IMG/VR virus record: IMGVR_UViG_3300033145_000767
Location: 1-64,000 of that record
From: a virus
Strand: one strand, 5' to 3'
DNA length: 64,000 nucleotides
A program made the position numbers and the translations under genes. Position 1 is the first letter of the stretch. Every line of letters starts with the position of its first letter. Below the pieces are notes generated by a model that did not search any database, was not told where the DNA came from, and saw only the letters and a program-made list of their open reading frames with translations. This document shows positions 13,484 through 45,535 of the stretch, in pieces.

Positions 13484-13511
13484 ACAGGCGATATAACTAG
13501 GAGGATAAAAT

Positions 13512-26366: not shown

Positions 26367-26714
26367 ATGAAACTAGGTAAATTTCTTCCAGAAGAAGATA
26401 GATTAGGTAGCCAATATGAAACTTTCTTAAAACTTAAAAAGAAGTTTGAAAAGGAAGGTATCCCAGAGAATATAGCAACATACAAAGCAAGTTATGTGCT
26501 AGAGCCTAAGAAGTTAAAGAAGATTAAAATGCTTGCTAGTAAGAAGGGCGAGAGCAAGTCAAGGGTTATATCTTTCTTCTTTGATAGTGATGAAGATATA
26601 GCTTTAGTAAGTAAATACTTTAATGTATCAGTACTAAACAATAGAGAGCCACAAGTAGGGCACTCAGACCTATTAATAGCTATATTAAAGGAATTAGATA
26701 AGTATGGTAAATAA
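26367..26714 (+). CDS. Hypothetical protein
   Basis: GAGG RBS, 115 aa. Confidence 0.65.
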   Translation: MKLGKFLPEEDRLGSQYETFLKLKKKFEKEGIPENIATYKASYVLEPKKLKKIKMLASKKGESKSRVISFFFDSDEDIALVSKYFNVSVLNNREPQVGHSDLLIAILKELDKYGK

Positions 26715-27576: not shown

Positions 27577-28149
27577 ATGATAACTAAAGAATTTTTAGTA
27601 GAACAATATATAAATCAAAAGAAGTCCACCAATTTAATAGGTAAAGAGATTGGTTCTTCTAGTGGGGATGTATATTATTATCTAAAGAAATATGGTATAA
27701 AACTTAGGGATAAAAGCACATTAATGATGGGGAATACCAATTCAAAAGATAGGGTAGTTACAGAAAAGACTAGAAAATTATTAAGCAAAATACATAAAGG
27801 AAAATCGAAATCAGAAGAGCATAAGAAAAAATGTAGCTTAGCACAGATAAAAAGATTTAAGGATAACCCTGAACATGGGGAACACCTAAGAAAAATTAGA
27901 TTAGGTATTAAAATGTCTACAGAACAAAAAGAAAAAATTTCTAAAAGTGTACTTAAAAATAATAAAGTAAAACATCATATATTTGGAAAAGAATATAATG
28001 ACCTAATAGATTTAACTAGAAGTAAACACATGAGTTTACACCATAGTGCTTACTTTTACATACTAGACAAACATGGCAAAGAAGGTATATTAGATTACCT
28101 TAATTGGTTTGATACAAAACATGGGCTAGGAGAAAATTATGGCGTGTAG
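27577..28149 (+). CDS. NUMOD3/HNH homing endonuclease
   Basis: N-terminal HTH, SEEHKKK repeats, KHH...L.RSKH..LH. Confidence 0.75.
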   Translation: MITKEFLVEQYINQKKSTNLIGKEIGSSSGDVYYYLKKYGIKLRDKSTLMMGNTNSKDRVVTEKTRKLLSKIHKGKSKSEEHKKKCSLAQIKRFKDNPEHGEHLRKIRLGIKMSTEQKEKISKSVLKNNKVKHHIFGKEYNDLIDLTRSKHMSLHHSAYFYILDKHGKEGILDYLNWFDTKHGLGENYGV

Positions 28150-29491
28150 TAAAGGATATACTTCCCCAAGAATTTCATCGGAGTATAAGGATTGCGGACT
28201 TATTTTGACTTTTGACCAATACAATATATGTGGTTTTGGTTTTGGGAAACAATGTGCAGGATGTTTGTATTGTTTTAGTAATTCCCAGAAAATAAACCAC
28301 CCAATGTACCAAGAAAAAGCATTTCAAGTAAGGTCAGTAAACCCTGATAAAGTAGTTGACATGCTTACAGGAAAAAGTAAGTCTAAATATTATGATAATT
28401 TCTTTAAATATAGATTCCCCTTTCATTGGGGGGGTTTAGCAGACCCATTCTGTTACATGGAGGAGAAAGAAAGAGTTGGTTTAAAAATATTACAAGGTGC
28501 AAGTAAAGTACAGTATCCTATAATATTCTCTACAAAAGGCACTTTTATGTGCTATGATAAAGAGTATCTTAAAGTATTTGAAAGTTATAAGAAAAGTAAA
28601 AACTTAGGGTTTAGCTTTAGTATAATTACTAATGAAGAAAGTCTTGCAAGTAAAATAGAAAAAGAAGTGCCAACTGTAGAAGAAAGACTTAAAGCAATGA
28701 AAATTCTTTCTGACATGGGCTTTTGGACAGTTCTTAGGCTAAGACCCTTTATGATTGGTATAACAGATATTAACTTAGAAACCCTCTTAGAAAGGGCTAA
28801 AAAGGCCGGTGCAAGGGCAGTATCAACAGAGTTTTATTGCCTAGACCTTAGAAGTTTAAGCACCTTAAATGAAAGACTTAAAGAAATGAATAAAATAACA
28901 GGTCTTGACTATAGAAAATATTATAAAGCTTTATCCCCAAGTAGCAGAGGAACTTACTTGAGATTGAATAGGCTGGCAAAAGAGCCCTATATGAAAAGGT
29001 TACTAAAGAAATGTAAGGAACTAGATTTAAAGGTTTCTATATCAGACCCAGACTTTAAAGAGTTTAATTTTTCTGGGTGTTGCTGTGGCTACCCTGAAAC
29101 TAAAGAAGAATATAATAGTGAAATTTGTAATTGGTCTAAAGGTCAATTAACATATCATTTAACAGAATTAAGAAAAAAGTATTGGTCTGGTTATAGACCT
29201 GCATTATTAACTTGGGACGAGGTTAAAGATACTATAGCTAATGATTGGGCAAGTGATGGGAGATACTTTAAAGATAGTATAAAATATTGGTCAACAGATT
29301 TTAGAAAGAAACAGCAATCACACATAGATGAATTTCTACAGTCATGGAATAGTACTAAGTCAAGTGATAGCCCATACAGTTATTTTGATGGGTTATTAGT
29401 CCCATATAAATTAGACGACAATGGTAATATAGTTTATAAATATGAACCTTCTGATTCTGAGCTTAGATTGCGTAAGGACGGAATTGTATGA
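28139..29491 (+). CDS. Radical SAM enzyme, spore-photoproduct-lyase-like phage family
   Basis: FDQYNICGF...CAGCLYCF, WGGLADPF, FSTKG, LRLRPF, C-terminal CCCG. Confidence 0.85.
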   Translation: MACSKGYTSPRISSEYKDCGLILTFDQYNICGFGFGKQCAGCLYCFSNSQKINHPMYQEKAFQVRSVNPDKVVDMLTGKSKSKYYDNFFKYRFPFHWGGLADPFCYMEEKERVGLKILQGASKVQYPIIFSTKGTFMCYDKEYLKVFESYKKSKNLGFSFSIITNEESLASKIEKEVPTVEERLKAMKILSDMGFWTVLRLRPFMIGITDINLETLLERAKKAGARAVSTEFYCLDLRSLSTLNERLKEMNKITGLDYRKYYKALSPSSRGTYLRLNRLAKEPYMKRLLKKCKELDLKVSISDPDFKEFNFSGCCCGYPETKEEYNSEICNWSKGQLTYHLTELRKKYWSGYRPALLTWDEVKDTIANDWASDGRYFKDSIKYWSTDFRKKQQSHIDEFLQSWNSTKSSDSPYSYFDGLLVPYKLDDNGNIVYKYEPSDSELRLRKDGIV

Positions 29492-29574
29492 ATAAAAAAG
29501 AATATATGAAAGAATATAGATTAAATAACATTTATATGTTATACTTGTTTGCATAGGAGGAAAGAGGAGATAAT

Positions 29575-29817
29575 ATGAAAAAGTTTATTACCATGTTACT
29601 AATGATACTAATGGTTTGGGTAGTTGTTGATAAACAATGCACACATAGCAGAAATTATTTTGTGTTAGAAAATAAAATAGGGGTTAGAAAAGTTTTCCAT
29701 AGCCATGCCTCTAAGGATAATGAGGTTATTATTGGGGATAGAGTAAAAATTAAAATACCCACAAAAAGATTAAAATGGTATGAAGATTCATATAAGTACT
29801 TAGAGGGGGTAATATGA
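29575..29817 (+). CDS. Hypothetical protein with N-terminal TM
   Basis: GAGGAG RBS. Confidence 0.55.
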   Translation: MKKFITMLLMILMVWVVVDKQCTHSRNYFVLENKIGVRKVFHSHASKDNEVIIGDRVKIKIPTKRLKWYEDSYKYLEGVI

Positions 29818-30368
29818 TAAACGAAAAAGAAGTTAGTAACTTATTACTAGAAAAAGTTGGTACTCATAGTAGTATCTTTATGTTCAAAGCAAAAGTTATA
29901 TTCGATAAGAAAATAAAAACTTACTGTTGCTTAGAGTATAATGGGAAAAAAGGGTGTCCTAACTATGGTAAAAAGAAAGGGTGTCCACCAAACAATAGAG
30001 ATATAGATGAAGTGCTAGATGTAACAGAAGACATTTATGTATTTGGTATGTCTTTTAACTTAAAGATACACGCAGATGAAATGAAAAAGAAACACCCTAA
30101 GTGGACACAAAGGCAATGCTATAATGTAATATATTGGCAACCAAAGCAGAGAAAGAAATTTAAGATGTTTATAGATAACTTTAAAAAGAAGTACCCTGAA
30201 TTAAGGGTAGACACCTTGCCAGAGGGGCATGGGGTTGATGTAACTAAAATGTTAAAAGATGCAGGTGTAGGTATATCCTGGGACTACCCTTTGGACACAG
30301 TTTGGACAGTTGCAATAGCAGGTAAGAAGGCTAAATATAAAAGAAAAAAGAGGGTTAAAAATGTATAA
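29814..30368 (+). CDS. DUF2284-like metal-binding protein
   Basis: CC...GCPNYG...GCPP; PEGHGVDV. Confidence 0.75.
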   Translation: MINEKEVSNLLLEKVGTHSSIFMFKAKVIFDKKIKTYCCLEYNGKKGCPNYGKKKGCPPNNRDIDEVLDVTEDIYVFGMSFNLKIHADEMKKKHPKWTQRQCYNVIYWQPKQRKKFKMFIDNFKKKYPELRVDTLPEGHGVDVTKMLKDAGVGISWDYPLDTVWTVAIAGKKAKYKRKKRVKNV

Positions 30369-31155
30369 GGTATACATTCCTACAAAAGGCAGAGCAAATA
30401 ACTTATACCTAAATAGGTTAGTAGATGTCATTAAGGTAAAACCTATATTAGTTGTAGAACCTCAAGAGTTAGAGGAGTATAATAAAGCATACAAGAATAA
30501 GGTATACTATGAGGTATTAGCTAAAGATAATATGGGGTATAATTACCTTATAAAAAAATTATATAAAACTATAAAGCTATTTAACTTTAATGCTTTTATC
30601 ATTGATGATGATATATGTAATATATACTTAAAAGAAGTGGGGAAGAAAAGGTTAAATCTAGGTATAGAAAACATAAATTTTGCACTAAACTATATATCCT
30701 GTTATACCCCATATGCCCTAACAGGTAGCGTATTTAAACAACACCAATGGGTGTGTGAAACAGATTTTCAAGACTTTGGCAGACCTTCAGCTTTTGTATA
30801 TATAAAAGGCAATGAGATAACGGATGAAGTTTTGTCATATTTCAATAGATATGATATACTTAGTTATAGGCTTAAAGCAGACATTATGTTTGCCACAGCC
30901 TGCTTATATAACGGTTTAAAGATAGGTATGTGTGGTAGATATGGGTTTACTACACCCGATATGGCTAAAAGTAAAGGGGGTTGTTATGATGATTACCAAA
31001 CAGACCAGCAATCTTTATGTAGTAAAGAAATACACAATATAGTAGGTAGTAATTTTTCATCAGTAATACATAGAAGGGGTAGAACAGAAGTAAAGATAGC
31101 ATGGAAAAAGCTATATGATGCAAAAGTAAAAACTAAACAGAACAAACTATTTTAG
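30361..31155 (+). CDS. GT-A glycosyltransferase (TET/GREB1-associated phage DNA GT-like)
   Basis: VYIPTKGRA, VVEPQE..Y, IIDDDI, KADI, SKGGC, I.WKK. Confidence 0.8.
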   Translation: MYKVYIPTKGRANNLYLNRLVDVIKVKPILVVEPQELEEYNKAYKNKVYYEVLAKDNMGYNYLIKKLYKTIKLFNFNAFIIDDDICNIYLKEVGKKRLNLGIENINFALNYISCYTPYALTGSVFKQHQWVCETDFQDFGRPSAFVYIKGNEITDEVLSYFNRYDILSYRLKADIMFATACLYNGLKIGMCGRYGFTTPDMAKSKGGCYDDYQTDQQSLCSKEIHNIVGSNFSSVIHRRGRTEVKIAWKKLYDAKVKTKQNKLF

Positions 31156-31383: not shown

Positions 31384-31602
31384 ATGTTAGGAAAAATATT
31401 ACGAAAAATAATAGACTTAATAACAATGTTCACAATAAGTATTGCAGGGAGTTTATGTGTTTTAACCATGCTTAAGCTAAAGGACTTTACTCTTACAAAT
31501 ATGACTGCTATGATATATCTAGGTGTCTTTATGGGTATGGTGAGCCTTTATGTGCAGGAAGGTATTAGAGAGGGAGAAAATGAATCCAATAAGGTTCGAT
31601 AA
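31384..31602 (+). CDS. Membrane protein (2 TM)
   Basis: Two hydrophobic segments. Confidence 0.6.
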   Translation: MLGKILRKIIDLITMFTISIAGSLCVLTMLKLKDFTLTNMTAMIYLGVFMGMVSLYVQEGIREGENESNKVR

Positions 31603-32215
31603 AGAAAAATTTAAAGATGGTTTTTTTACACTAAGGAGTAAAGTAGCATGGGCAAAGGATATTGTCTCTATACTTAATGTTAGAAAACTTATTATATATG
31701 CTATAGTTATAGGGCTATTCATTGGTTATGGTTACTGGAAGGGGGTAAAAGAAAAACCAGTCCATTTAGATTTAAAACAAAAAATTACAGTTCATTTAGA
31801 TAAGAAAAAAATCAATGCTATGGAACAACCAACTATAGTTAAACAGGAGTTTGAAACTACATTTAACTATACTGATTATATCAATGGTAAGAAACATGGT
31901 GTAGTTAAAGTAGATAAAATAGAAGAACTTAGAAAGAAATATAAACCATACGGCTTTACTAATAAAGTTATAGGTGTAATGGGGTTAGGTGTAAGTGCTA
32001 ATGATGTGTCTGGGGAATCAGGGGTAGGTTACAGGTATGCTAGATTATGGAAGTTTAGAACTGAAATAGTGGTTACAGATAAGGGATTTTATCCTATTAG
32101 CGTGTCTTATAAACCAGATTGGTTCTTTAGTAACACAAGTATAAATGTAGCTGGTGGAAAAGCGTGGGAAGACGGTTCAAACAGAGCCTTTTTAGGCGTA
32201 AATGTGGAGTTTTAA
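31580..32215 (+). CDS. Membrane-anchored protein with C-terminal amphipathic beta-strands
   Basis: TM LIIYAIVIGLFIGYGYW; ends AFLGVNVEF. Confidence 0.65.
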   Translation: MNPIRFDKEKFKDGFFTLRSKVAWAKDIVSILNVRKLIIYAIVIGLFIGYGYWKGVKEKPVHLDLKQKITVHLDKKKINAMEQPTIVKQEFETTFNYTDYINGKKHGVVKVDKIEELRKKYKPYGFTNKVIGVMGLGVSANDVSGESGVGYRYARLWKFRTEIVVTDKGFYPISVSYKPDWFFSNTSINVAGGKAWEDGSNRAFLGVNVEF

Positions 32216-33259: not shown

Positions 33260-33616
33260 ATGAAAAGATTAATGGCGTGTGTGGTTTTGGTTATGGCAGT
33301 TATGGTAATATCACTTGGCAGATTAGGAAATAATAGAGAAAGTAATTTTGGGTCGGCAACTGTTGTGCATTCTCCTGTAAATCAGGTTAAACCGCTTGAT
33401 GTTCAAATAATAGAAATACAAGAAGCTATTGATGCTCAAAGTAAAGAATTAAGAGAATTAAAAATTAGAGTACAAGCTGATTTTATTCGTCAAGGTTATG
33501 GCAACAGGACTCTTTATGCGTATATTAAACAGCTAAAACAAGAAAATAGGAATATAAAACAATATTTAGAGTTAAAAGGTAAAGATGAGTGTAAAGGTGA
33601 TGGTGATTGCAAATGA
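33260..33616 (+). CDS. Secreted/membrane-anchored coiled-coil protein
   Basis: Signal-like MKRLMACVVLVMAVMV; GGAGG RBS. Confidence 0.6.
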   Translation: MKRLMACVVLVMAVMVISLGRLGNNRESNFGSATVVHSPVNQVKPLDVQIIEIQEAIDAQSKELRELKIRVQADFIRQGYGNRTLYAYIKQLKQENRNIKQYLELKGKDECKGDGDCK

Positions 33617-34092
33617 GTAAAGAACTAATAGTAATGGCTGGGAACATAGGTACAGGTAAGACCACTTATGTTAAGAATTATCAGAAGGAAGGCTATATAG
33701 TTATAGCAAGAGATACCTTAAGATATGCAATAGGTGGGGGAACTTATGTATTTAACCTAGACTATGAACCTATTGTACATGCAACAGAAAAATATTTACT
33801 TAGAAAATTTCTTGATTTAGGTGTAAACATAGTTATAGATGAAACAAATGTTACAGCAAGAAGTAGGAGAGTTTTGGATGTAGAGGCAAAACAGGGGGGT
33901 TACAAAGTAATATGCATAGTAATGCCTAGGCTATCTAAAAAGGATAGTGTTGATAGGCGTATGCAAAACCCCCATGATTGCCCAGATAGAACAGTATGGG
34001 AAGGTGTATGGGGAAGATTTAATGACAAGTATGAAGAACCTAAGTACTCAGAAGGCTTTGATGAGATTAATTTTATAACTGATTGGGCTTAA
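33613..34092 (+). CDS. P-loop kinase (AAA_33/polynucleotide-kinase-like)
   Basis: GNIGTGKTT, RDTLR, VIDETN. Confidence 0.85.
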   Translation: MSKELIVMAGNIGTGKTTYVKNYQKEGYIVIARDTLRYAIGGGTYVFNLDYEPIVHATEKYLLRKFLDLGVNIVIDETNVTARSRRVLDVEAKQGGYKVICIVMPRLSKKDSVDRRMQNPHDCPDRTVWEGVWGRFNDKYEEPKYSEGFDEINFITDWA

Positions 34093-34393
34093 TATGCATA
34101 AAGTAATTATACTTTTAAAAGAGGGTAAAAAGGTTGAAAGCTCTTTTACCGAATATGATAAAGCTTGTGAGGCTGTATCTTTATTATGGTACGGTACAGG
34201 GGAGGTACACCCTTATATGATTGAAAAAATCTTCTTGGAGGCTGACAATGGAAAGAGAAAATAATTGTGATATGAAAGAATTTTGTCAGAATAACTTTGA
34301 AAAGCATGGCATGTACACATGCTTTAACCAGATTTATTACTACGATAATTTATGTACTAGAATAGGTAAAAGAAAAAAGAAAGGCTATCAAAA

Positions 34394-34702
34394 ATGCGAG
34401 ACAAAAGAGAAGAGGCAATTGAAGCAAAGGAAAGACTTGAAAGAGAGAACAGAAAAAAGAAGGGCAACAAAGAAAAGAGTAATGAAAAAGTACAGGACAA
34501 AGAACCACTAAAATTCTTTGTACAGATTGGGGACTGTAACCCTCATATATACAATATAGTTATAGGGTTCAACCCTGAAATTGATTATGCTGGTTTAAAA
34601 TTTGATGAGAATTTATTAAAGGGTATAGTAGAAGATACAAATAAAGCATTAGTACCAGTACTTAAAAGATATGTTAAACAACTAAAAAAGGCTAACAAAT
34701 AA
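34394..34702 (+). CDS. Hypothetical protein
   Basis: ORF abutting the transporter gene. Confidence 0.55.
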   Translation: MRDKREEAIEAKERLERENRKKKGNKEKSNEKVQDKEPLKFFVQIGDCNPHIYNIVIGFNPEIDYAGLKFDENLLKGIVEDTNKALVPVLKRYVKQLKKANK

Positions 34703-34963
34703 ATGAAAAAAGAATTTAAAATCCCATTTTGGACATTCATGTTCTTTATTATATGCTACTCTAATCAAGGGTTAGCAGGTTTACCAGAACAATGTTTGTA
34801 TTATTTAAAGAGGGAATCTTGGGGTTTGTCAGCTACATCTATAGGCCTTATTGGTATAATAACAGGTCTAGCTTGGTATACAAAGGTCTTGTGGGGCTAT
34901 CTAAATGATTATACTCCGTTAAGAAAAATAAAAATAAGATTTAGAAAAAAAGGAAAGAAATGA
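34703..34963 (+). CDS. MFS/BT1 (folate-biopterin) transporter, N-terminal part (TM1-2)
   Basis: QGL...YYLKRE.WGLS...LAWYTKVLWGYLNDYTPL matches the BT1 N-terminus. Confidence 0.75.
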   Translation: MKKEFKIPFWTFMFFIICYSNQGLAGLPEQCLYYLKRESWGLSATSIGLIGIITGLAWYTKVLWGYLNDYTPLRKIKIRFRKKGKK

Positions 34964-35991
34964 TTATTAAACTACCTTATAAGTATGAAGTAACTATTGA
35001 AATAACAAAAGACAGGTACTTATCTAAGTACTATTTATATATAGCTTATTCATTGATTATAGCTTGTATACTATATATAGTTACATTTGGCTTAAATATT
35101 GTAAGCCTTATTGTAACAGGGTTACTAATTAATATTGGAATTGCTTTAGCAGATGTAGCAAATGATAAGCAGATGTGTTTAATAGAAAGAGAGCATAATT
35201 TAAAAGGGAAGGTTCAAGCTATTCAATGGGCATCATTAAGTGTATGTAGCTTAGTTGTATCTTTACTTGGGGCATACTTAGCTTCCACATTACCAGAACC
35301 TTTAAATTATAAACTAGCTTATGGTATTTGTATAATAATACCTATAAGTGCATTAATATATTTGAGAACAAAATATTTTGAAGAGCCTGTAAAAGAAGTT
35401 AAGAAGTTTACTTTAAGTGTATTTAGATATTTGAAAAATAAAGACTTCTTACTTGGTCTAGCCTTTATAGTTTTACTTAGGTTTAGCCCATCCTTTGGTA
35501 CAGGGCTTATGATTAAATGCAGAGAAGAATTATTTATTGGTAAGATGTTCCTAGGTTATGTTGGGGCATTGGGTACAGTAGTAGGTATGGTAGGTTATGG
35601 CTTATATTATTGGAAAGCACATAAGTTTCCTATTAAAAAAATGTTATATTTTACAATAGTATTTGGGGCTATAACAAGTCTTTTCTACCTATATCTGCCT
35701 AGTAAGTGGTTTTTAGTTGCTTACAGTCTATTATTTGGGGCATTTGAGGGTATATCTTTCTTAGCTGTTATGTCCTTCATGGTTAAGATATTACCTACTG
35801 GAAGTGAAGCTATGTTTTATGCATTAGTTACATCAGCTAATAACTTATCTAGTAGATTAGGTAGTGCATTTGGTGGTATAATATATGATAACTTTGGCTA
35901 TAATATGAATGTAGTAGTAGCAAGTTTGTGCACTTTTTTATGCATATTCATAATCCCACACTTAAAAATAGAGGAGATACCTAATGAGTAA
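34960..35991 (+). CDS. MFS/BT1 transporter, C-terminal part (TM3-12)
   Basis: ALADVAND, VQAIQW, P.GSEAMFYALVTS.NN; about 10 TM. Confidence 0.8.
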   Translation: MIIKLPYKYEVTIEITKDRYLSKYYLYIAYSLIIACILYIVTFGLNIVSLIVTGLLINIGIALADVANDKQMCLIEREHNLKGKVQAIQWASLSVCSLVVSLLGAYLASTLPEPLNYKLAYGICIIIPISALIYLRTKYFEEPVKEVKKFTLSVFRYLKNKDFLLGLAFIVLLRFSPSFGTGLMIKCREELFIGKMFLGYVGALGTVVGMVGYGLYYWKAHKFPIKKMLYFTIVFGAITSLFYLYLPSKWFLVAYSLLFGAFEGISFLAVMSFMVKILPTGSEAMFYALVTSANNLSSRLGSAFGGIIYDNFGYNMNVVVASLCTFLCIFIIPHLKIEEIPNE

Positions 35992-36037
35992 GTTAAAAGT
36001 ATTAAACTTATATGCAGATATAGGGGGTAAAAGATGA
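35984..36037 (+). pseudogene. Stub of C5-cytosine DNA methyltransferase (motif I only)
   Basis: MSKLKVLNLYADIGGKR* resembles K.LNLYAGIGGNR of phage C5 MTases; GAGGAG RBS intact. Confidence 0.5.
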
Positions 36038-36336
36038 AAAAATTGTTAGCCAAACTAAACTTATGGTGGGCAGTAAAAACTAATAAGAAAGTGAAACAGC
36101 AGTATGAAGCAAAGAAAAAAATGGATTTCTTTTATAAGAGGTTAAAATTAGGCTTATGGGTACTTTATCTTGTTGATAATAAAATGAAAGAGTTAGGGTT
36201 TAGTAGAGAGCAAAAGAAACAAATGAGGAGAAGTTACTTTAAAGATGGTATATTATCTTCAACATTTATGAATAAACTAATCAATGACACTAACATTATT
36301 GAGGAGATAAAGAATTATGAACGAAGAAAGGTATAA
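36034..36336 (+). CDS. Hypothetical protein
   Basis: Coupled ORF. Confidence 0.6.
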   Translation: MKKLLAKLNLWWAVKTNKKVKQQYEAKKKMDFFYKRLKLGLWVLYLVDNKMKELGFSREQKKQMRRSYFKDGILSSTFMNKLINDTNIIEEIKNYERRKV

Positions 36337-36661
36337 AACACCAGATGATAAGTTGACCTGTAAAGACTGTAAGGCAGTTATTGAAGATAAAGTGAACTGT
36401 TTAGCAAACATAATAATTCTTACAGAAGATGCAGAATCAATAATAACCCTTGAGATGAAACAAGCTTTAAACATAATAGAGGACTATAGTTATAAAAAAT
36501 ATTACCATTTAAGTGCCTCACAGATAGTATTATTTAGACCAGATATTGCAGTAAAGGCATTTAAAAGAATATTTAAAAAACCTATATTCTTTGGGTTTGA
36601 GTTTAGCATACTTTGTAAGAGTTGCTATGCATTACATAAGGTTAAACACCCTCTCAAATAG
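36317..36661 (+). CDS. Zn-finger protein
   Basis: CKDC...LCKSC. Confidence 0.6.
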   Translation: MNEERYKTPDDKLTCKDCKAVIEDKVNCLANIIILTEDAESIITLEMKQALNIIEDYSYKKYYHLSASQIVLFRPDIAVKAFKRIFKKPIFFGFEFSILCKSCYALHKVKHPLK

Positions 36662-36670
36662 TTGTTGAGT

Positions 36671-36691
36671 TTTCATCCAATATGCTATAAT
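36671..36691 (+). promoter_or_regulatory. Phage promoter class TTTCAT-N6-TGnTATAAT
   Basis: Conserved motif heading the deoC-like operon. Confidence 0.65.
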
Positions 36692-36733
36692 TGAAGTAGA
36701 GGGTAGAAATAGGTAGAAACTTAAAAAGGAGAC

Positions 36734-37447
36734 ATGATGATACACATAGAGAGATTTATAGATAATACATTTTTAAAGGGGGGCAATAGAGCAAAGTTGC
36801 TAGATGATTTTATGAGTACATATAAACATGCCTTTAGGTCATTATGTACCAATGAGGGTAACCTTGAGTTAGCTAAAGAGGCTAAAGTGTTATTCCCTTC
36901 ATCCCCAACTAAACTGGCTATTGTTAGAAATTTTCCTTATGGAACATCTAGTAAGCCTGCACCTATAGAAGATAGGGAAATTGACGAATATGATGTAGTT
37001 ATACCGCATAAGTTAATAGCAAGAAACAAAGTAGACAAGGTAAAGTTTTTCTTAGACGCCTACTACAGAACAGGTAGAACCATTAAGTGGGTAATAGAAG
37101 AACCTCTATATGAAGACTATGAAATATCGGAGCTAGTAAATTTTATATACTCTCATTATATGGAGGGAAGATATAATAATAGAGTTTATATAAAATCAAA
37201 CTCTGGGTTTGTAGACAGAAAGAGGGCATTTAATACAGTTGTTAAACTATTTCCAAGCCTTGTTAGAAGGGTTGCACCTAAAGAACACCTTGGGGTAAAG
37301 ATTTCGGGTTGGGTATCAACACTAAAACAGGCGAGGAGAATTGCACAGCAAGATTGTATTATGGGCTCATCTAAAGGTTTAAAAATATTTTATGAACAGC
37401 AGAACTTAAAATATGATACTGCAAATAAAAGAATTATAGAGGGGTAG
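36734..37447 (+). CDS. deoC: Deoxyribose-phosphate aldolase-like TIM barrel
   Basis: IDNTFLK, NFPYG, EYDVV, IKWVIE, YIKSNSGF (Schiff-base Lys), GVKISG, MGSS. Confidence 0.75.
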   Translation: MMIHIERFIDNTFLKGGNRAKLLDDFMSTYKHAFRSLCTNEGNLELAKEAKVLFPSSPTKLAIVRNFPYGTSSKPAPIEDREIDEYDVVIPHKLIARNKVDKVKFFLDAYYRTGRTIKWVIEEPLYEDYEISELVNFIYSHYMEGRYNNRVYIKSNSGFVDRKRAFNTVVKLFPSLVRRVAPKEHLGVKISGWVSTLKQARRIAQQDCIMGSSKGLKIFYEQQNLKYDTANKRIIEG

Positions 37448-37448
37448 T

Positions 37449-37604
37449 ATGAAGAAGTATAAACTTTTTGTAACCTATGGACTAATGGTGGCCAGTAATA
37501 ACCCTTTGTACCTAAGAGTAGGGTTTCATAATAGGGGGGCAAAGTATGGGTTATACATTGATACCTTAGTAAGTAGAACATGGGTGTACCTGAAAAGAGG
37601 TTAG
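37449..37604 (+). CDS. Small hypothetical protein
   Basis: 51-aa ORF with GAGGGG RBS, immediately after the deoC-like stop. Confidence 0.5.
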   Translation: MKKYKLFVTYGLMVASNNPLYLRVGFHNRGAKYGLYIDTLVSRTWVYLKRG

Positions 37605-37606
37605 TT

Positions 37607-37825
37607 ATGGTAAGAAAAAATAGTAAAAAGTATAGAATAGCTAAAAGACTAGGGGAAATATACTTAGCCTTAAAAGAACTCTCTGGAGAATTGCAGGAAT
37701 TTGCAGAAGACCATGAACTAGGTAGTATAGGTAATATGCTTTTAGATGATATTAAAAAGATAGAGCAAGCAGACCACGATTTAATTCGGGTTGCTCACAA
37801 ATTAATAAAAGAGGGGGGAAACTAG
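37607..37825 (+). CDS. Hypothetical protein
   Basis: GAGG RBS; helical. Confidence 0.6.
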   Translation: MVRKNSKKYRIAKRLGEIYLALKELSGELQEFAEDHELGSIGNMLLDDIKKIEQADHDLIRVAHKLIKEGGN

Positions 37826-38418
37826 TGTTAATTAATAAAATAAACTCTATGAAAAATCTTGATGATTTTTTATATACTACTTACCTAATTGGTGCTATGG
37901 AAGAGAAAGCCGAAGGTGATAGTGGAGAGTCTAAAAGAGAGGTATTTTTTAATGGGTTAGTAAAAAGAAATGTATTCCCTATAGACTCAACTAGAACTGA
38001 AGTTATGAGAACAGGTTTTACTTCTAAAGAACTTAAAGAAAAAATGGCAGGTTGGACAGCTTCAGGTAATAAAGAACTAAGAAAAAAATATGCTAAATGT
38101 ATCTGGGAAGGAAGAAATATGGTTGATGAAGATTTTAACCTAATATACATTCCAGGCGATTTTCATGCAGTTAAGATTTCTAATTGGATAACAGCCGTTA
38201 TAAATGAAGGGGATAGACCTTGTGGTACATTTGGTGAAGCTGGTGTAGCTACAGATATAAAGATACCTATTTATATAATAACTGAGCTACCAAAATATAA
38301 ATTGCCAGGAAGCTTAATACAATGGATGGATATTAATGATGGGGAAGTATTTAAAACTCAAAGAGAGTATTTTAACTTTATAGATAAAAAATATGTTTTA
38401 AAGGAGAAAAAAAGATGA
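37825..38418 (+). CDS. Nucleoside 2-deoxyribosyltransferase / dNMP N-glycosidase-like protein
   Basis: TYLIGAME, D...V..S, CGTFGEAG (catalytic Glu), IPIY. Confidence 0.75.
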   Translation: MLINKINSMKNLDDFLYTTYLIGAMEEKAEGDSGESKREVFFNGLVKRNVFPIDSTRTEVMRTGFTSKELKEKMAGWTASGNKELRKKYAKCIWEGRNMVDEDFNLIYIPGDFHAVKISNWITAVINEGDRPCGTFGEAGVATDIKIPIYIITELPKYKLPGSLIQWMDINDGEVFKTQREYFNFIDKKYVLKEKKR

Positions 38419-38876
38419 GCAATGAAAAACCCACTAACCCAAAAGGTATTATTGGTAGTAGTAAACTACCTTTTCACCTTTGCCCAACAACCTTTATAGC
38501 AGGGGTATCAATGGCTTTTCTTGAAGGTTGCTTAAAGTATGGCAGAAGTAATTTTAGAGCAGCAGGGGCAAGGTCTAGTATTTATTATGATGCAACAATG
38601 AGGCATTTAATATCATGGTTTGAGGGGGAAGATATAGACCCTGATAGCGGGATACATCATTTATATAAAGCAGGGGCTTGTTTAGCAGTAATAGCTGATG
38701 CTATGGAAGCAGATAAATTAAATGATGATAGAATGATTAAGGGAGGTTATGAAGATATAATTAAAAAATTTACCCCTTTAATTAAAGAGATAAAAGAAAG
38801 GCATAAAGGTAAAAACCCTAAACATTATACTATAAAAGATAACAAAAAGGAGGAACAGGATGAAGTTAAAAGTTAA
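38415..38876 (+). CDS. dATP/dGTP diphosphohydrolase (DUF5664)
   Basis: NPK..IG..KLP..L.P, EG.LKYGR.NF, YYDA.MRH..SW.EGED.DPDSG.HHL. Confidence 0.9.
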   Translation: MSNEKPTNPKGIIGSSKLPFHLCPTTFIAGVSMAFLEGCLKYGRSNFRAAGARSSIYYDATMRHLISWFEGEDIDPDSGIHHLYKAGACLAVIADAMEADKLNDDRMIKGGYEDIIKKFTPLIKEIKERHKGKNPKHYTIKDNKKEEQDEVKS

Positions 38877-39219
38877 AGAAGTACTAAGTATGAAAGAAGT
38901 TTTACAGAAACTAATAGGTCAAGATTTAGATACAGTAGTAAGTTATGATGTAGAGGAAATAGTTTCAAGTATTAATGAAGAATTAGCTACTTATAATAAA
39001 ACTAAAACTAAACTTATAAAGAAACTAGGTAAAGAAGATAAAGATAAAAAGACTATTGTAGTTGAAAAAGAAAACATAGAAAAATATAATAAAGAGTTAG
39101 TTAAAATATTAGAAAAAGAAGTAGAAATAAAAGGTAACAAAATTAAAGTTTCAAGACTAGAGGGAAGTAAATTAAATGTTATAGAAGTTGCTAGAATTAA
39201 ACCTATACTAGAAAGATGA
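38860..39219 (+). CDS. Hypothetical phage protein
   Basis: AGGAGG RBS; charged helical. Confidence 0.65.
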   Translation: MKLKVKEVLSMKEVLQKLIGQDLDTVVSYDVEEIVSSINEELATYNKTKTKLIKKLGKEDKDKKTIVVEKENIEKYNKELVKILEKEVEIKGNKIKVSRLEGSKLNVIEVARIKPILER

Positions 39220-39671
39220 AAATGAGCATTAAAAATGAGTACTACAAAAAGTATCCTTGGCTACACTCTTTAATGTTAGCTAAACAAAGGTGTAACAATA
39301 AAAAAAATAATAGGTATAAAACCTATGGTGGTAGGGGTATAAAACTATTTTTAACCAAGGAAGCCATAAAGAAACTTTGGTTTAGAGATAAAGCATTTAA
39401 TATGATTAAGCCCTCTATAGACCGTATTAATAATGATGGGAATTATGGGTTTAGTAATTGTAGGTTTATTGAAACATCCGATAATGTAATTAAATCTAAA
39501 GAAAAAATTATTAATCAATATGATTTACAAGGTAAATTTATTAAATCTTGGAAAAGCCAAATTGAAATACAAAATACTTTAGGTTTTTTACAATGCTGTA
39601 TTTCAGATGTTTGTAGAAAGAAACAAAAAACTGCTTATAGTTTTATTTGGAAGTTTAAAAAAGAGAGGTAG
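39216..39671 (+). CDS. HNH-type homing endonuclease with NUMOD1
   Basis: YGGRGI, PSIDRINNDGNY..NCRF. Confidence 0.85.
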   Translation: MKMSIKNEYYKKYPWLHSLMLAKQRCNNKKNNRYKTYGGRGIKLFLTKEAIKKLWFRDKAFNMIKPSIDRINNDGNYGFSNCRFIETSDNVIKSKEKIINQYDLQGKFIKSWKSQIEIQNTLGFLQCCISDVCRKKQKTAYSFIWKFKKER

Positions 39672-40233: not shown

Positions 40234-40554
40234 ATGAGTAACACTAAGAGAGGTAAATCAACAGATAAGTATAAAAAATATAATCATCACCATGAAATAC
40301 TAAATGAACATAAAATAGTGGATTTTAATAATGGTAAATTTGTAGCTAATATTGAAGCTATACCTTTATTAAAAGCACTTAATGAAATAGGTTTAAGAAC
40401 AAGAACACATCACATTGGAAAAGAAAAAGAGGCTTTTATAAGTATTTTATTAGATAAAGATGTAAGTATAGAAATAAAAACTGTATTTGAAAGAGATGCA
40501 GATAGAACTAAATACACTGGTAAAAAAGAATTATTAATTTCTTGGAGAAAATAA
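40234..40554 (+). CDS. Hypothetical protein
   Basis: I.PLLKALNEIGL.T..H pattern. Confidence 0.6.
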   Translation: MSNTKRGKSTDKYKKYNHHHEILNEHKIVDFNNGKFVANIEAIPLLKALNEIGLRTRTHHIGKEKEAFISILLDKDVSIEIKTVFERDADRTKYTGKKELLISWRK

Positions 40555-41156
40555 TGAGTAAAATAATATTAGGGTATATAGCAGAAGAAGGTGATGCAAA
40601 ACGAATGGAAGAATTTCAAATATCGCCTGAAACTAATGAATGTCTAAAACCTATTTATAAGAAAAATAAAATAATAGTAATAGATAAAATAAAAAAACAA
40701 TTTCTAAAGAAGTATTTTCTTAAATACCCTTGGATGAAGCATTATTTCAATGCTAGAAGAAGGTGCAAAGATAAAAAGTTCTATAGCTATAAATATTACG
40801 GTAAACTTGGCATTAAATGTCTAATTAATAGGGTTGAAATTGAGGAAAGATGGTATAAAGATAAAGCATATAAAATGAAGAAACCGACTTTAAGTCGTAG
40901 TAGCCATGATAAAGATTACACTTTTAAAAATGCTAGGTTTATAGAGAATTCTAATAATATAGCGGAAAGAAATAAAAGAGTATGCTCAAAAAAAATAGAA
41001 CAATATGACTTAGAAGGTAATTTTATTAAAGAATGGGAAAGCCAATCTCAAATAGAAAGGTGGTTAGGTTACGACCAAGGTAATATATCAAATGTATGTA
41101 GGGGCAAGTATAAACAGTCATATGGTTTTGTTTGGAGGTTTAAAGATGCCAAATAA
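40542..41156 (+). CDS. Homing endonuclease paralogue (divergent HNH plus NUMOD1)
   Basis: YPW..HY.NARRRC, YGKLGIK, NARFIE, SYGFVWRF. Confidence 0.75.
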   Translation: MEKIMSKIILGYIAEEGDAKRMEEFQISPETNECLKPIYKKNKIIVIDKIKKQFLKKYFLKYPWMKHYFNARRRCKDKKFYSYKYYGKLGIKCLINRVEIEERWYKDKAYKMKKPTLSRSSHDKDYTFKNARFIENSNNIAERNKRVCSKKIEQYDLEGNFIKEWESQSQIERWLGYDQGNISNVCRGKYKQSYGFVWRFKDAK

Positions 41157-44639: not shown

Positions 44640-44828
44640 ATGGATATTAAAAAAGGTTTAAAAGTTTACACAGATGATTTTTGGTATGATTTAGCCCATG
44701 GAGGGTATATACACCCTACAAGTATATGTGTAAAAGAAAGTGATGCTATGAAGGTATTAAACGCTTTAGCTATAATACAAGATTTTGAAGATTCTTGTGA
44801 AGAACAAATAGGGGGGTTTATTCAATGA
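44640..44828 (+). CDS. Hypothetical protein
   Basis: DFWYDL..GGYI.P motif; RBS. Confidence 0.65.
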   Translation: MDIKKGLKVYTDDFWYDLAHGGYIHPTSICVKESDAMKVLNALAIIQDFEDSCEEQIGGFIQ

Positions 44829-45535
44829 GTCAAAAGAAACACTATAATATAGGTAGAAAAAACCCAAATTGGGGAAGTAAAAGTTTTACCCCAAGTACTA
44901 TACAAAAATTTAAGAAGTTAAGTTGTAAAGAAAATCATTCACGATGGAAAAAAATACCTAAAAAAATAATAGAAGGTTTATATTTAAACCAAAAGCGGTC
45001 TATTGCAGAGATAGCTAAAATTCTTAAGTGTAGTACAACTGCTATTTACAATAAGTTACTCTATTATAAAATTAAGAGAAGAACACAATCAGAGGCTATG
45101 AAAGAAAAATTCTTGGGTAGAAAACTATCAAAAGAACATAAAGAAAAAATTAGTAAAAGTAGAATTAAGAAGAAATCAGCAAGAGGTAAGCATAACCCAA
45201 TGTTTGGTAAAAAGCATAGCACAAAAACTAGAAGTAAAATGAGTATAATAGCAGGCGGCTCTGGCATACCTTATGAAGATAAACAGTATACTTACTATTT
45301 TTATAGTATTCGTGATAAAATAAGAAAAGGGGATAAAAATATTTGTCAGTTATGTAAAAAAATTAAACTAAAGAATGGGAATAATTTAGATGTTCACCAT
45401 ATTGACTACAATAAGAATAATAATAAATTTATTAACTTAATTAGTTTATGTAAAAAGTGCCATCTTAAAACAAATAGAAATAGAGAACTTTGGAAGGAAG
45501 TGTTTTTACCATGTCGCAACACAATAATTCTTTAG
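44825..45535 (+). CDS. NUMOD3/HNH homing endonuclease
   Basis: NPMFGKKHS, CQLC...LDVHHIDYNK.N....NLISLCKKCH. Confidence 0.9.
   Translation: MSQKKHYNIGRKNPNWGSKSFTPSTIQKFKKLSCKENHSRWKKIPKKIIEGLYLNQKRSIAEIAKILKCSTTAIYNKLLYYKIKRRTQSEAMKEKFLGRKLSKEHKEKISKSRIKKKSARGKHNPMFGKKHSTKTRSKMSIIAGGSGIPYEDKQYTYYFYSIRDKIRKGDKNICQLCKKIKLKNGNNLDVHHIDYNKNNNKFINLISLCKKCHLKTNRNRELWKEVFLPCRNTIIL

What the first reader, a model, noticed from the sequence alone, without database searches (positions are those of the whole stretch)
36671..38876. Operon that could dismantle a canonical dNTP completely: DUF5664 -> NDT-like glycosidase -> DeoC
Seen: a dedicated promoter, then a DeoC-like aldolase (both catalytic Lys and the Asp retained), two small ORFs, an NDT/dNMP N-glycosidase-like gene and a DUF5664 gene. 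Established: DUF5664 enzymes hydrolyse dATP/dGTP to dNMP and occur in phages that substitute a purine. NDT-fold hydrolases such as DNPH1/MilB release base plus (deoxy)ribose-5-P from nucleoside monophosphates, and DeoC cleaves deoxyribose-5-P. Inference: a three-step route dNTP -> dNMP -> base + dR5P -> G3P + acetaldehyde that removes one host nucleotide. Alternatively, base exchange onto an imported base via the adjacent BT1 transporter and kinase. No PurZ or Que genes are visible in this window.
Basis: partly seen in the sequence, partly recalled or inferred. Interest (0 to 1): 0.75.

Follow-up and report, generated by a model that had tools for sequence, protein, structure and literature searches.

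The report
Phage deoxynucleotide-breakdown three-gene module
An uncultured 90-kb phage carries, in one gene row, three enzymes that together could take a DNA building block apart (strip the phosphates, cut off the base, split the sugar); two of them resemble an enzyme pair described in other phages in 2026, and the sugar-splitting enzyme is the new addition.

Summary
On the + strand lie a diverged deoxyribose-phosphate aldolase (DERA/DeoC-like, 36737-37447, catalytic Asp and three Lys kept), two small ORFs, a protein of the nucleoside-deoxyribosyltransferase (NDT) fold with the Tyr/Asp/Glu triad (37825-38418) and a standalone DUF5664/PF18909 protein (38415-38876).

The chain is more than neighbourhood. 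Among 13 related viral loci, a PF18909 gene follows the NDT-like gene in 12 (10 above Pfam's cut-off). A DERA gene abuts it upstream in 4, and one metagenomic protein fuses DERA-like and NDT-like domains. In 84 loci of a distant NDT-like subfamily, none has DUF5664.

A 2026 paper shows that standalone DUF5664 hydrolyses dATP/dGTP/dUTP to dNMP, and that the NDT-like DmtZ cleaves dAMP to adenine plus deoxyribose-5-phosphate. The likeliest reading is therefore dNTP -> dNMP -> base + dR5P -> G3P + acetaldehyde.

The target nucleotide and the purpose are unknown. The complete genome lacks PurZ, ThyA/ThyX, dUTPase, QueC/QueD, FolE and TGT. No enzyme was assayed.

I class it as a new variant of a known kind. 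This scan noted DeoC + NDT-like pairs before on other DNA (e1-6110502, e1-5863006 and others); I did not check those notes.

The parts
36683..36691 (+). Promoter-like extended -10 (TGNTATAAT) in the 72-base gap upstream of the aldolase gene. The -35 is weak, at a 15-base spacing.
   Evidence: Read. It is 1 of 20 such sites in the window against 10.65 expected. The consensus scan did not list it. Function not shown.
36737..37447 (+). Diverged deoxyribose-phosphate aldolase (DERA/DeoC-like), 236 aa (237 aa from the ATG at 36734). D87, K118, K154 (the Schiff-base position) and K189 are kept.
   Evidence: (1mzh, E 9.1e-13). No Pfam hit for this protein itself.
37449..37604 (+). 51-aa ORF. It has no homologue and no family hit, and may not be a gene.
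37580..37825 (+). 81-aa conserved small phage protein of unknown role. In relatives it lies 2 to 2.5 kb upstream of the NDT-like gene, so it is not tied to the module.
   Evidence: tblastn matches in L004 (E 9e-7) and L005 (E 4e-8). No Pfam family.
37825..38418 (+). NDT-superfamily enzyme of a subfamily without a Pfam model, 197 aa. Y20, D112 and E138 form the triad. P55 sits at the 'transferase' proline column. P132 sits where classical NDTs have the 5'-OH-binding Asp. Predicted to be a dNMP N-glycosidase, possibly also a dR5P transferase.
   Evidence: Activity not assayed.
38415..38876 (+). Standalone DUF5664 (PF18909) protein, 153 aa. Predicted dNTP pyrophosphohydrolase. It overlaps the NDT-like gene by 4 bases.
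   Evidence: 75.8 bits; phrog_801, E 5.7e-20. Activity of a standalone homologue is reported in PMC12884076.
33607..34092 (+). P-loop kinase-like protein (AAA_33), 161 aa. Neighbour only; membership in the module is not shown.
   Evidence: 49.1 bits. No homologue found in the 10 related loci.
34703..35991 (+). MFS/BT1-type transporter split into two ORFs (86 + 343 aa). L001 has one 400-aa ORF. Neighbour only; membership not shown.
   Evidence: MFS_1 54.3 bits, BT1 42.7 bits.

Best explanation
The three genes encode a catabolic shunt for deoxynucleotides that the phage runs alongside replication.

- Step 1 (inferred from a characterised homologue): DUF5664 removes pyrophosphate from one or a few dNTPs, giving dNMP.
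- Step 2 (inferred from fold, conserved triad and gene context): the NDT-fold enzyme attacks C1' of the dNMP with Glu138, positioned by Tyr20 and Asp112. It releases the free base and, after hydrolysis of the covalent intermediate, 2-deoxyribose-5-phosphate.
- Step 3 (inferred from conserved catalytic residues): the DERA forms a Schiff base at Lys154 and splits dR5P into glyceraldehyde-3-phosphate and acetaldehyde. This makes the drain irreversible and feeds glycolysis.

The NDT-like/DUF5664 pair is the conserved core. DERA is an accessory that several lineages have coupled directly to the NDT-like gene. Which dNTP is drained is unresolved: it could be a canonical purine dNTP, as in phage Wayne, or dUTP. 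Whether the aim is exclusion, pool balancing or clean-up is also unresolved.
For: 1. Identity of the parts: see the observation check.

2. Core pair.
- In 10 viral loci holding the window's NDT-like subfamily (31-78% identity), the gene 0 to 2 ORFs downstream matches PF18909 in 9 of 10. Seven are above the 27-bit cut-off and 2 are sub-threshold.
- In 3 loci of a second subfamily (28-30% identity to the window's protein), PF18909 lies 0.5 to 2.4 kb downstream. L014 scores 73.7 bits and L016 120.1 bits. L015 matches L014 in its HMM hits.
- In the window the two genes overlap by 4 bases.

3. DERA link.
- DERA ORFs with D/K/K/K intact abut or overlap the start of the NDT-like gene in L002/L011 (PF01791 35.3 bits) and in L014, L015 and L016 (local HMM E 6e-31, 6e-31 and 2.5e-25; Pfam 21-22 bits, sub-threshold).
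- Two more relatives (G006, G008) carry an intact DERA 11 to 15 kb away.
- P0096 (426 aa) fuses a DERA-like domain to an NDT-like domain (hhalign to the window's family: probability 94.8, E 5.3e-8).
- DERA is rare in phage records. A tblastn with L011's DERA finds 21 of 50,697, and several of these are named or look like bacterial fragments.

4. Specificity control. In 84 loci of distant NDT-like subfamilies, 0 have DUF5664 and 2 have a weak DERA-like hit 5 to 6 kb away.

5. Other neighbours of the NDT-like gene are also nucleotide-degrading: NT5C deoxynucleotidase directly upstream in L006 (143 bits) and an HD-domain protein in L002.

6. Enzymology in print (PMC12884076; passages and sections 21-24 read).
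- Standalone DUF5664 of phage Wayne converts dATP, dUTP and dGTP to dNMP.
- NDT-like DmtZ hydrolyses dAMP to adenine + dR5P, with a Tyr/Asn/Glu triad.
- The authors measured that reaction by coupling it to E. coli DeoC, the same chain as the one encoded here.

7. Inteins sit directly before the Cys of the active-site motif in NDT-like homologues of about 520-546 aa. This marks the motif as functionally critical.
Against: - No activity was measured for any of the three proteins.
- The window's DERA and NDT-like proteins miss every Pfam model. The DERA is only 22-28% identical to the other phage DERAs and has Trp where they have Gly next to K189's loop, so its substrate could differ.
- DERA is absent within 6 kb in 9 of the 10 loci of the window's own subfamily. 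It is absent from 3 of 6 relatives' records that are at least 73% complete (G004, G007, G010). It is therefore dispensable.
- The loci come from related phages with shared gene order, so the counts are not independent events.
- The fused protein P0096 has lost three of the four catalytic residues of its DERA half.
- The NDT-like family keeps the proline that the DmtZ paper links to transferases. This leaves transfer rather than hydrolysis open.
- The window's DUF5664 is a distant relative of the assayed one. I did not see whether phage Wayne is among the 547 matching records.
- A reason to destroy dNTPs is missing: no replacement-base pathway was found in the complete genome.
Confidence: 0.55

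Rival explanations
1. Base swap at the nucleotide level, as with DmtZ. DUF5664 makes a donor dNMP from a canonical dNTP. The NDT-like enzyme transfers the deoxyribose-5-phosphate onto a non-canonical base, either imported (the MFS/BT1 transporter) or made by the phage. A kinase re-phosphorylates the product. DERA only clears dR5P from the hydrolytic side reaction.
For: - DmtZ does exactly this with dAMP and the Z base.
- The family keeps the proline column linked to transferases (P55 is at least 90% conserved).
- P132 replaces the 5'-OH-binding Asp of classical NDTs, which fits a 5'-phosphate substrate.
- In L014 and L016 a QueD/PTPS gene (88 and 78 bits) lies between the NDT-like and DUF5664 genes. 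L016's record also holds QueC and FolE2.
- Hutinet et al. 2019 wrote that undetected 2'-deoxyribosyltransferases in 7-deazaguanine phages cannot be ruled out (PMC6884629; one passage read).
- A transporter and a kinase lie just upstream in the window, and the transporter also in L001.
- Unchecked scan notes report PurZ-linked NDT/DERA-like pairs (e1-5362522, e1-5991353).
Against: - The complete genome has no PurZ, QueC, QueD, FolE, FolE2 or TGT.
- No PurZ was found in any of 10 relatives' records.
- The transporter gene is split here.
- The kinase has no homologue in the 10 related loci.
- L016's record has a 273-aa ORF that could be a DNA-level transglycosylase by its motifs (my reading; no Pfam hit), which would make a nucleotide-level swap unnecessary there.
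- A DERA that destroys the transferred group is an odd partner for a transferase.
Confidence: 0.2
2. The genes are neighbours without a shared pathway. Each acts on its own in the replication and nucleotide region of the genome, and the apparent chain is a by-product of inherited gene order.
For: - All loci with the pair share the same flanking replication genes (FEN exonuclease, primase-helicase), so synteny may be inherited.
- The window's DERA is separated from the NDT-like gene by two ORFs.
- DERA is missing from several relatives.
Against: - The pair survives down to 28-31% identity of the NDT-like protein, while the ORFs around it change.
- DERA/NDT-like junctions overlap or abut in three lineages.
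- A natural fusion exists.
- 0 of 84 loci of distant subfamilies show the partners.
Confidence: 0.1
3. Anabolic direction. DERA condenses acetaldehyde with glyceraldehyde-3-phosphate to make dR5P for deoxynucleotide supply. The acetaldehyde could be the QueD by-product (a chemistry that I recall and did not check in a call).
For: - PTPS/QueD is present in the records with an adjacent DERA (G002, G011, G013; L015 of G012 is near-identical to L014 but was not scanned).
- PTPS/QueD is absent from four complete records without an adjacent DERA.
- The phage has no ribonucleotide reductase NrdD.
Against: - The window's own genome has an adjacent DERA but no PTPS.
- Free dR5P is not an activated donor for an NDT-type glutamate nucleophile (established mechanism; my reasoning).
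- No phosphopentomutase or nucleoside phosphorylase was seen among the 70 window proteins scanned with Pfam.
Confidence: 0.05

Closest known systems
DmtZ with DUF5664-1 or DutZ in PurZ0 actinophages Wayne and Ghobes (Poubanne et al., NAR 2026, PMC12884076)
   Same: - A standalone DUF5664 dNTP pyrophosphohydrolase works with an NDT-fold enzyme that acts on the dNMP and releases base + dR5P.
- The catalytic Tyr/(Asp or Asn)/Glu triad and the proline are shared.
- The genes appear to be near neighbours: the protein accessions given in the paper are two apart. I did not verify this.
   Different: - No PurZ0 in this genome or in 10 relatives' records.
- No detectable BLAST similarity of the NDT-like protein to any of 50,697 GenBank phage records.
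- The NDT-like protein carries a ~40-residue helical insert (residues 56-95 in the model).
- A phage-encoded DERA is added here. The paper uses E. coli DeoC only as an assay reagent.
DNPH1/Rcl (2'-deoxynucleoside 5'-phosphate N-hydrolase) followed by cellular DERA
   Same: Same two-step chemistry (dNMP -> base + dR5P -> G3P + acetaldehyde) and the same fold. DNPH1 and Rcl chains are among the structural matches.
   Different: - DNPH1/Rcl ranks below the bacterial NDTs (Rcl Z 9.2 against 13.6).
- This is a separate subfamily, phage-encoded, and coupled to a dNTP pyrophosphohydrolase.
Classical nucleoside 2'-deoxyribosyltransferases (PF05014, PF15891)
   Same: - Best structural matches (7m5h, 7o62, 6evs, 8rh3, 1f8x).
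- Profile hit to 2a0k at E 9.8e-8.
- 34 of 66 and 25 of 66 distant family members match the two Pfam models.
   Different: - The window protein itself matches neither model.
- Pro132 sits at the column of the 5'-OH-binding Asp.
- The context (DERA, DUF5664, NT5C) points to phosphorylated substrates.
DatZ/MazZ/DUF550 dNTP-clearing enzymes of PurZ phages
   Same: Phage enzymes that drain chosen dNTPs from the pool.
   Different: Different folds. No HD-type or DUF550 protein was found in this genome (control silent; local search).

Membership tests
Deoxyribose-phosphate aldolase (class I, DeoC/LacD PF01791) | Significant full-length sequence similarity to solved DERAs | tested here: met
   Profile A2 against the PDB: the best 26 of 30 listed are DERA or 'aldolase'; 1mzh E 9.1e-13 over residues 1-220. 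The single sequence gives 1vcv at E 2.1e-5.
Deoxyribose-phosphate aldolase (class I, DeoC/LacD PF01791) | Schiff-base Lys plus the Asp and the two further Lys of the active site | tested here: met
   D87, K118, K154 and K189 are invariant in 5 homologues and aligned to D/K/K/K of 1mzh. They are kept in 8 of 9 phage DERA-like sequences. Their catalytic roles are recalled from the DERA literature.
Deoxyribose-phosphate aldolase (class I, DeoC/LacD PF01791) | Match to the Pfam model (an operational test, not a defining chemistry) | tested here: not met
   No Pfam family at E <= 0.1 for the window protein. L011's DERA passes (35.3 bits against 23.8). L014 and L016 are sub-threshold (21.1 and 22.1 bits).
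Deoxyribose-phosphate aldolase (class I, DeoC/LacD PF01791) | Cleaves 2-deoxyribose-5-phosphate | not testable with these tools
   Needs an enzyme assay.
Nucleoside deoxyribosyltransferase superfamily | NDT-type Rossmann-like fold | tested here: met
   Model pLDDT 83.7. VIA-align ranks 1-10 are all NDT-superfamily: Z 13.6 (rmsd 3.6, 136 aligned) to 10.2. Unrelated flavodoxin-like folds score 10.0 or less. Foldseek alone gave no E <= 0.001.
Nucleoside deoxyribosyltransferase superfamily | Catalytic Tyr, Asp/Asn and Glu nucleophile | tested here: met
   Y20 and E138 are invariant and D112 is at least 90% conserved in 69 sequences. They align to the Tyr, Asn and Glu columns of 2a0k. The triad is defined in PMC12884076.
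Nucleoside deoxyribosyltransferase superfamily | Match to PF05014 or PF15891 | tested here: inconclusive
   The window protein matches none. Of 66 distant members found with its profile, 34 match PF05014 and 25 match PF15891.
dNMP N-hydrolases (DNPH1/Rcl, DmtZ) | Acts on 5'-phosphorylated deoxynucleotides and releases dR5P | not testable with these tools
   Indirect evidence only: Pro132 at the column of the 5'-OH-binding Asp, and DERA adjacency and fusion.
DmtZ (PurZ0-phage clade) | Sequence membership in the DmtZ clade | tested here: inconclusive
   No DmtZ sequence was on hand. tblastn of the window protein against 50,697 GenBank phage records gave no match. I did not verify that Ghobes and Wayne are in that collection.
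DmtZ (PurZ0-phage clade) | Genome also encodes PurZ0 | tested here: not met
   PF00709 is absent from the complete genome, and the control found it in 14 of 14 genomes. It is also absent from 10 relatives' records.
DUF5664 / PF18909 (dGTP_diPhyd_N) | Match above Pfam's gathering score | tested here: met
   75.8 bits against 27, model positions 2-99 of 99.
DUF5664 / PF18909 (dGTP_diPhyd_N) | dNTP pyrophosphohydrolase activity | not testable with these tools
   Shown for phage Wayne's standalone protein. My model of the window's protein was unusable (pLDDT 51.1).

The most novel reading that the evidence does not exclude
The module is a general, PurZ-independent machine for replacing a base at the nucleotide level.

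- DUF5664 turns a canonical dNTP into the donor dNMP.
- The NDT-like enzyme moves the deoxyribose-5-phosphate onto a non-canonical base. In the QueD/QueC/FolE2-bearing relatives that base would be a 7-deazaguanine. In this phage it would be a base imported through the adjacent MFS/BT1 transporter.
- The neighbouring kinase re-phosphorylates the product.
- DERA burns the dR5P lost to hydrolysis.

The virion DNA would then carry a base not yet identified. An earlier scan note says this phage has a remodelled polymerase pocket (not checked here), which could be what copies such DNA.
Probability: 0.15. Interest if true: 0.85.

Novelty: new variant of a known kind. Interest (0 to 1): 0.6.

Why it matters
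Phages are known to clear chosen dNTPs from the host pool. The only described case that goes on to cut the base off the nucleotide is the DmtZ system of Z-genome actinophages (2026).

Three things are new here:
- The same logic, DUF5664 plus an NDT-fold enzyme, is a conserved core in a separate lineage of phages known here only from metagenome-derived records, and these lack PurZ.
- The enzyme belongs to a subfamily that no Pfam model sees (431 representatives at E <= 0.001).
- Several lineages have added, and one has fused, a deoxyribose-phosphate aldolase, so the nucleotide can be taken apart down to central metabolites.

My searches of the open-access library found no paper that combines a phage, a deoxyribosyltransferase and deoxyribose-phosphate aldolase. 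The DmtZ paper mentions DeoC only as an assay reagent.

If the chain works as read:
- It is a new phage-encoded metabolic route.
- It marks genomes whose DNA chemistry or precursor economy deserves a look.
- It gives three small, expressible enzymes with clear assays.

Tried and rejected
Searches that gave nothing:
- blastn of 33500-39300 against GenBank phages: no match.
- tblastn of the DeoC-like, the NDT-like and L014's NDT-like proteins against the same collection: no match. P0063 gave one hit, in an uncultured 595-kb phage.
- The close-family profile A1 against the PDB gave nothing meaningful. Foldseek gave no E <= 0.001. The fold became clear only with VIA-align and the wider profile.
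- The DeoC-like family could not be found in viral contigs or in metagenome contigs (both scans spent).
- P0096 was not found in viral contigs.
- A1 was not found in genome contigs.

Consequence: I could not see the contigs of the four closest DeoC-like homologues (P0002-P0005) or of the fusion P0096. That P0004 and P0006 lie on one 20,034-base contig is only suggested by equal contig lengths.

I then used narrower ones (A10, A11) and single proteins.

Models that could not be used:
- Complex prediction of DeoC-like with NDT-like returned 'no answer' (score 0.00). This is no evidence either way.
- The AlphaFold model of DUF5664 from 10 sequences was poor (pLDDT 51.1) and was not used for a fold search.

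Other points:
- The 221-aa protein at 31550-32215 co-occurs with the NDT-like gene in 4 of 10 loci. It stayed without a family.
- TET/JBP (PF12851) and DUF550 (PF04447) searches of the genome found nothing, but their controls were silent, so absence is not shown.
- I considered and dropped a LOG/SLOG or TIR-type assignment for the NDT-like protein. Those folds score Z 10.0 or less, below ten NDT-family chains.
- Supplementary files of PMC12884076 (hand-made NDT-like HMM, trees) were not seen. They may show whether this subfamily was already in the authors' NDT tree.

Full report
SETTING. The window is the first 64,000 bases of a 90,469-base virus record with direct terminal repeats, estimated 100% complete. 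G+C is about 32%, and nearly all genes from 4 kb to 66 kb are on the + strand. The finding lies in the replication and nucleotide part of the genome. Upstream are a clamp-loader-like AAA+ protein, a radical SAM/DUF2284/TAGT cluster, an AAA_33 kinase-like protein and an MFS/BT1 transporter. Downstream are HNH/NUMOD endonucleases, a 5'-3' exonuclease, a primase-helicase, RecA and a family A polymerase. blastn finds no GenBank phage similar to this stretch.

THE THREE PROTEINS.

(a) Aldolase, 36737-37447.
- Pfam and PHROGs do not see it.
- phmmer finds two solved DERAs.
- A profile of the protein with its four homologues gives 30 PDB sequences at E <= 1. The best 26 are all deoxyribose-phosphate aldolases or 'aldolase', led by 1mzh at E 9.1e-13 over the full length.
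- D87, K118, K154 and K189 are invariant and fall on the D, K, K, K of 1mzh. The C-terminal G-x-S-x-G stretch is also aligned.

(b) NDT-fold protein, 37825-38418.
- No Pfam or PHROG hit, and no PDB hit by sequence with the close family.
- Fifteen homologues were found.
- The AlphaFold model (pLDDT 83.7) is a three-layer alpha/beta fold with a helical insert at residues 56-95.
- Foldseek gave only E of about 1e-3, though the list was dominated by DprA, YtoQ, NDT, MilB and DNPH1.
- VIA-align against 48,161 chains put ten NDT-superfamily chains first (Z 13.6 to 10.2), above TIR, B12-binding and CheY-like folds (Z 10.0 or less).
- A search of 1.84 billion representatives found 431 relatives at E <= 0.001. 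Of 66 distant members that I scanned, 34 match PF05014 and 25 match PF15891.
- A 69-sequence profile hits T. brucei NDT at E 9.8e-8. The beta-1 Tyr, the Pro after beta-2, the Asp/Asn column and the G-T-x-x-E nucleophile motif are all aligned.
- At the column where that NDT has the Asp that holds the 5'-OH (role recalled), the window's close family has an invariant Pro132.

(c) DUF5664, 38415-38876.
- PF18909 at 75.8 bits, covering the whole model.
- It overlaps the NDT-like gene by four bases.

COMPARATIVE TEST OF THE CHAIN.

- IMG/VR holds 10 loci with the window's NDT-like subfamily, at 31-78% identity. In 9 of 10, a PF18909 protein is encoded 0 to 2 ORFs downstream. Seven are above the gathering score. 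L003 and L004 are sub-threshold at 20.9 and 19.2 bits.
- The exception, L002, has instead a sub-threshold DUF1599 protein and an HD-domain protein downstream. Its record is also the only one of five tested that holds a dUTPase (78.5 bits). The window's genome and G004, G006, G008 and G010 have none. With n this small, that is only a hint that DUF5664 fills a Dut-like role, as the 2026 paper found for Wayne.
- By tblastn, the window's DeoC-like protein found nothing within 6 kb in any of the 10 loci. Its profile, run over the whole records, then found DERA ORFs in 3 of 10. In G002 the DERA lies directly upstream of, and overlaps, the NDT-like gene (PF01791 35.3 bits). In G006 and G008 it lies 11 to 15 kb away. 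Of the six records at least 73% complete, three have a DERA.
- A second NDT-like subfamily, 28-30% identical to the window's, gave three loci (L014 and L015 are near-identical). In all three, a DERA ORF ends at or overlaps the start of the NDT-like gene, and a PF18909 gene follows 0.5 to 2.4 kb downstream. A QueD/PTPS gene lies between them.
- All eight non-fused phage DERA-like sequences keep D/K/K/K.
- One metagenomic protein, P0096, is a DERA-like domain fused to an NDT-like domain. Its DERA half keeps only the Schiff-base Lys.
- As a control, 84 loci of two distant NDT-like subfamilies showed 0 DUF5664 and 2 weak DERA-like hits 5 to 6 kb away. The partners therefore belong to particular subfamilies and not to NDT-like genes in general.
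- DERA is rare in deposited phage records: 21 of 50,697 by tblastn, and several of these are named or look like bacterial fragments.

WHAT IS IN PRINT.

- PMC12884076 (NAR 2026; I read the DUF5664 passages, sections 21-24 and the DeoC passage) shows three things.
  - The standalone DUF5664 of Arthrobacter phage Wayne converts dATP, dUTP and dGTP to dNMP.
  - The NDT-like DmtZ of Ghobes and Wayne hydrolyses dAMP to adenine + dR5P, and also transfers dR5P onto 2-aminoadenine.
  - Tyr6, Asn77 and Glu103 are essential for DmtZ.
- The authors measured DmtZ by coupling it to E. coli DeoC. They do not report a phage-encoded aldolase.
- A full-text search for 'deoxyribose-phosphate aldolase' + 'deoxyribosyltransferase' + 'phage' found no paper.
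- 'DmtZ' in the enzyme sense occurs in that one paper only, among the 10 listed of 35.
- Hutinet et al. 2019 note, in one passage that I read, that undetected 2'-deoxyribosyltransferases in 7-deazaguanine phages cannot be ruled out.

WHAT THE GENOME LACKS.

- The complete genome has no match to PurZ/PurA, ThyA, ThyX, dUTPase, QueC, QueD/PTPS, FolE, FolE2, TGT/DpdA or NrdD. The controls for all of these found the family elsewhere.
- TET/JBP and DUF550 also gave nothing, but their controls were silent.
- No PurZ was found in 10 relatives' records, and no ThyA in five.
- DUF5664 itself is common: 547 GenBank phage records hold a relative, led by Mycobacterium, Propionibacterium and Arthrobacter phages. 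It does not mark purine substitution.

READING.

- The best-supported mechanism is a drain: dNTP -> dNMP (DUF5664) -> base + dR5P (NDT-like, Glu138 as nucleophile) -> G3P + acetaldehyde (DERA, Lys154 Schiff base).
- What is shown: the identities, the conserved catalytic residues, the conserved pairing and the fusion.
- What is inferred: every activity, the substrate, and above all the purpose.
- DERA adjacency and fusion are the best indirect evidence that the NDT-like enzyme releases a phosphorylated deoxy-sugar. That means it works on dNMPs, not on nucleosides or ribonucleotides.
- The NT5C deoxynucleotidase directly upstream of the NDT-like gene in L006 (143 bits) fits a nucleotide-degrading neighbourhood.
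- The main rival is a DmtZ-style base swap. It is favoured by the conserved 'transferase' proline, the QueD gene inside the module in L014 and L016, and the transporter and kinase next door. It is disfavoured by the absence of any base-synthesis pathway in this genome and by the split transporter gene.

COMPARISON AND NOVELTY.

- The module works like DmtZ + DUF5664 and like animal DNPH1 + DERA.
- It is a member of the NDT superfamily, the DERA family and PF18909 by the tests above. It is not shown to be a member of the DmtZ clade, and it fails the PurZ0 criterion.
- I class it as a new variant of a known kind: a known enzyme pair in a new subfamily and a new genomic setting, extended by a phage-encoded aldolase.
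- Earlier notes of this scan report DeoC + NDT-like pairs on other DNA: another 90-kb phage, a T4-like phage, PurZ jumbo phages and an Asgard archaeon. I did not check them, except that my own finding in L002 matches the description in e1-6110502. They suggest that the coupling is wider than the loci examined here.

Noticed in passing
proteins P0021, P0023 (and P0026, P0028, P0033, P0034, P0056, P0066 by length and split matches): NDT-like homologues of about 520-546 aa carry an intein inserted directly before the Cys of the P-C-G-T..E active-site motif. The insert starts with Cys and ends with His-Asn followed by Cys. Pfam finds Intein_splicing in 3 of 66 and LAGLIDADG_3 in 2 of 66 other members.
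   Followed up: partly
protein P0100 (526 aa): A radical SAM domain (a CxxxCxxC-type motif; Radical_SAM counted once among the 66 members) is fused to a C-terminal NDT-like domain. This is a second fusion that ties this family to nucleotide or base chemistry.
   Followed up: no
window 34703-35991: The MFS/BT1-type transporter is split into two overlapping ORFs (86 + 343 aa) in different frames, around an A-rich stretch. The closest viral relative, L001, has a single 400-aa ORF. This could be a real split, a decaying gene or an assembly error.
   Followed up: partly
L016 1-9489 and L017 (record G013): This relative carries FolE2 (275 bits), QueC (219 bits), a ClpP-like gene and a 273-aa ORF with no Pfam hit that by its motifs may be a DpdA-like transglycosylase (my reading). 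About 6 kb further on lies the row DERA, NDT-like, 78-aa ORF, QueD (78 bits), DUF5664 (120 bits). It is a likely 7-deazaguanine phage with the module.
   Followed up: partly
L006 5290-5880; L002 7611-8195; L011 2856-3227; L010 6600-7208: Other neighbours of the NDT-like gene in relatives: NT5C deoxynucleotidase (143 bits) directly upstream in L006; an HD-domain protein and a sub-threshold DUF1599 ('nucleotide modification associated domain 1', 19.9 bits) downstream in L002; a SprT-like protein between the NDT-like and DUF5664 genes in L010.
   Followed up: partly
L007 2470-3030, L008 4389-5135, L009 5264-5806, L014 9182-9646: A second, weaker NDT-like paralogue lies within about 1.5 kb of the main one in four relatives (local HMM E 5e-10 to 7e-4; L014's copy scores PF05014 23.9 bits, sub-threshold).
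   Followed up: no
records G000, G002, G004, G006, G008, G010: Complementary pattern. dUTPase (PF00692) is present only in G002, the one relative without DUF5664 next to the NDT-like gene. It is absent from the window's genome and from four relatives that have DUF5664 there. QueD/PTPS is present in G002, G011 and G013 (adjacent-DERA lineages) and absent from the others tested.
   Followed up: partly
loci L019-L098: A distant NDT-like subfamily (alignment A10) is very common in viral contigs: 408 relatives, on contigs up to 232 kb. It has neither DUF5664 nor an adjacent DERA in the 80 loci fetched. Its partners were not examined.
   Followed up: no
window 28139-31155 and 57225-60767: First cluster: radical SAM (450 aa), DUF2284 and a TET-associated-type glycosyltransferase (28.1 bits). 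Second cluster: SDR, DUF2284, a cytidylyltransferase and a LicD + GT1 protein. No TET/JBP was found, but that control was silent. These are possibly DNA or surface glycan modification genes.
   Followed up: no
window 8432-15696: GGACT cyclotransferase, three Amidoligase_2-like proteins and a RimK-type ATP-grasp lie in one early-region cluster.
   Followed up: no
window 31550-32215: A 221-aa protein with no family or PDB match has homologues within 6 kb of the NDT-like gene in 4 of 10 related loci (L001, L002, L004, L006). The Atlas shows only unnamed viral clusters.
   Followed up: partly
window 26704-27282, 39216-39671, 40542-41156, 44825-45535, 55668-56111: Several NUMOD/HNH homing-endonuclease-like genes are scattered through the replication region. 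Three of them match the same ORF of L001.
   Followed up: no
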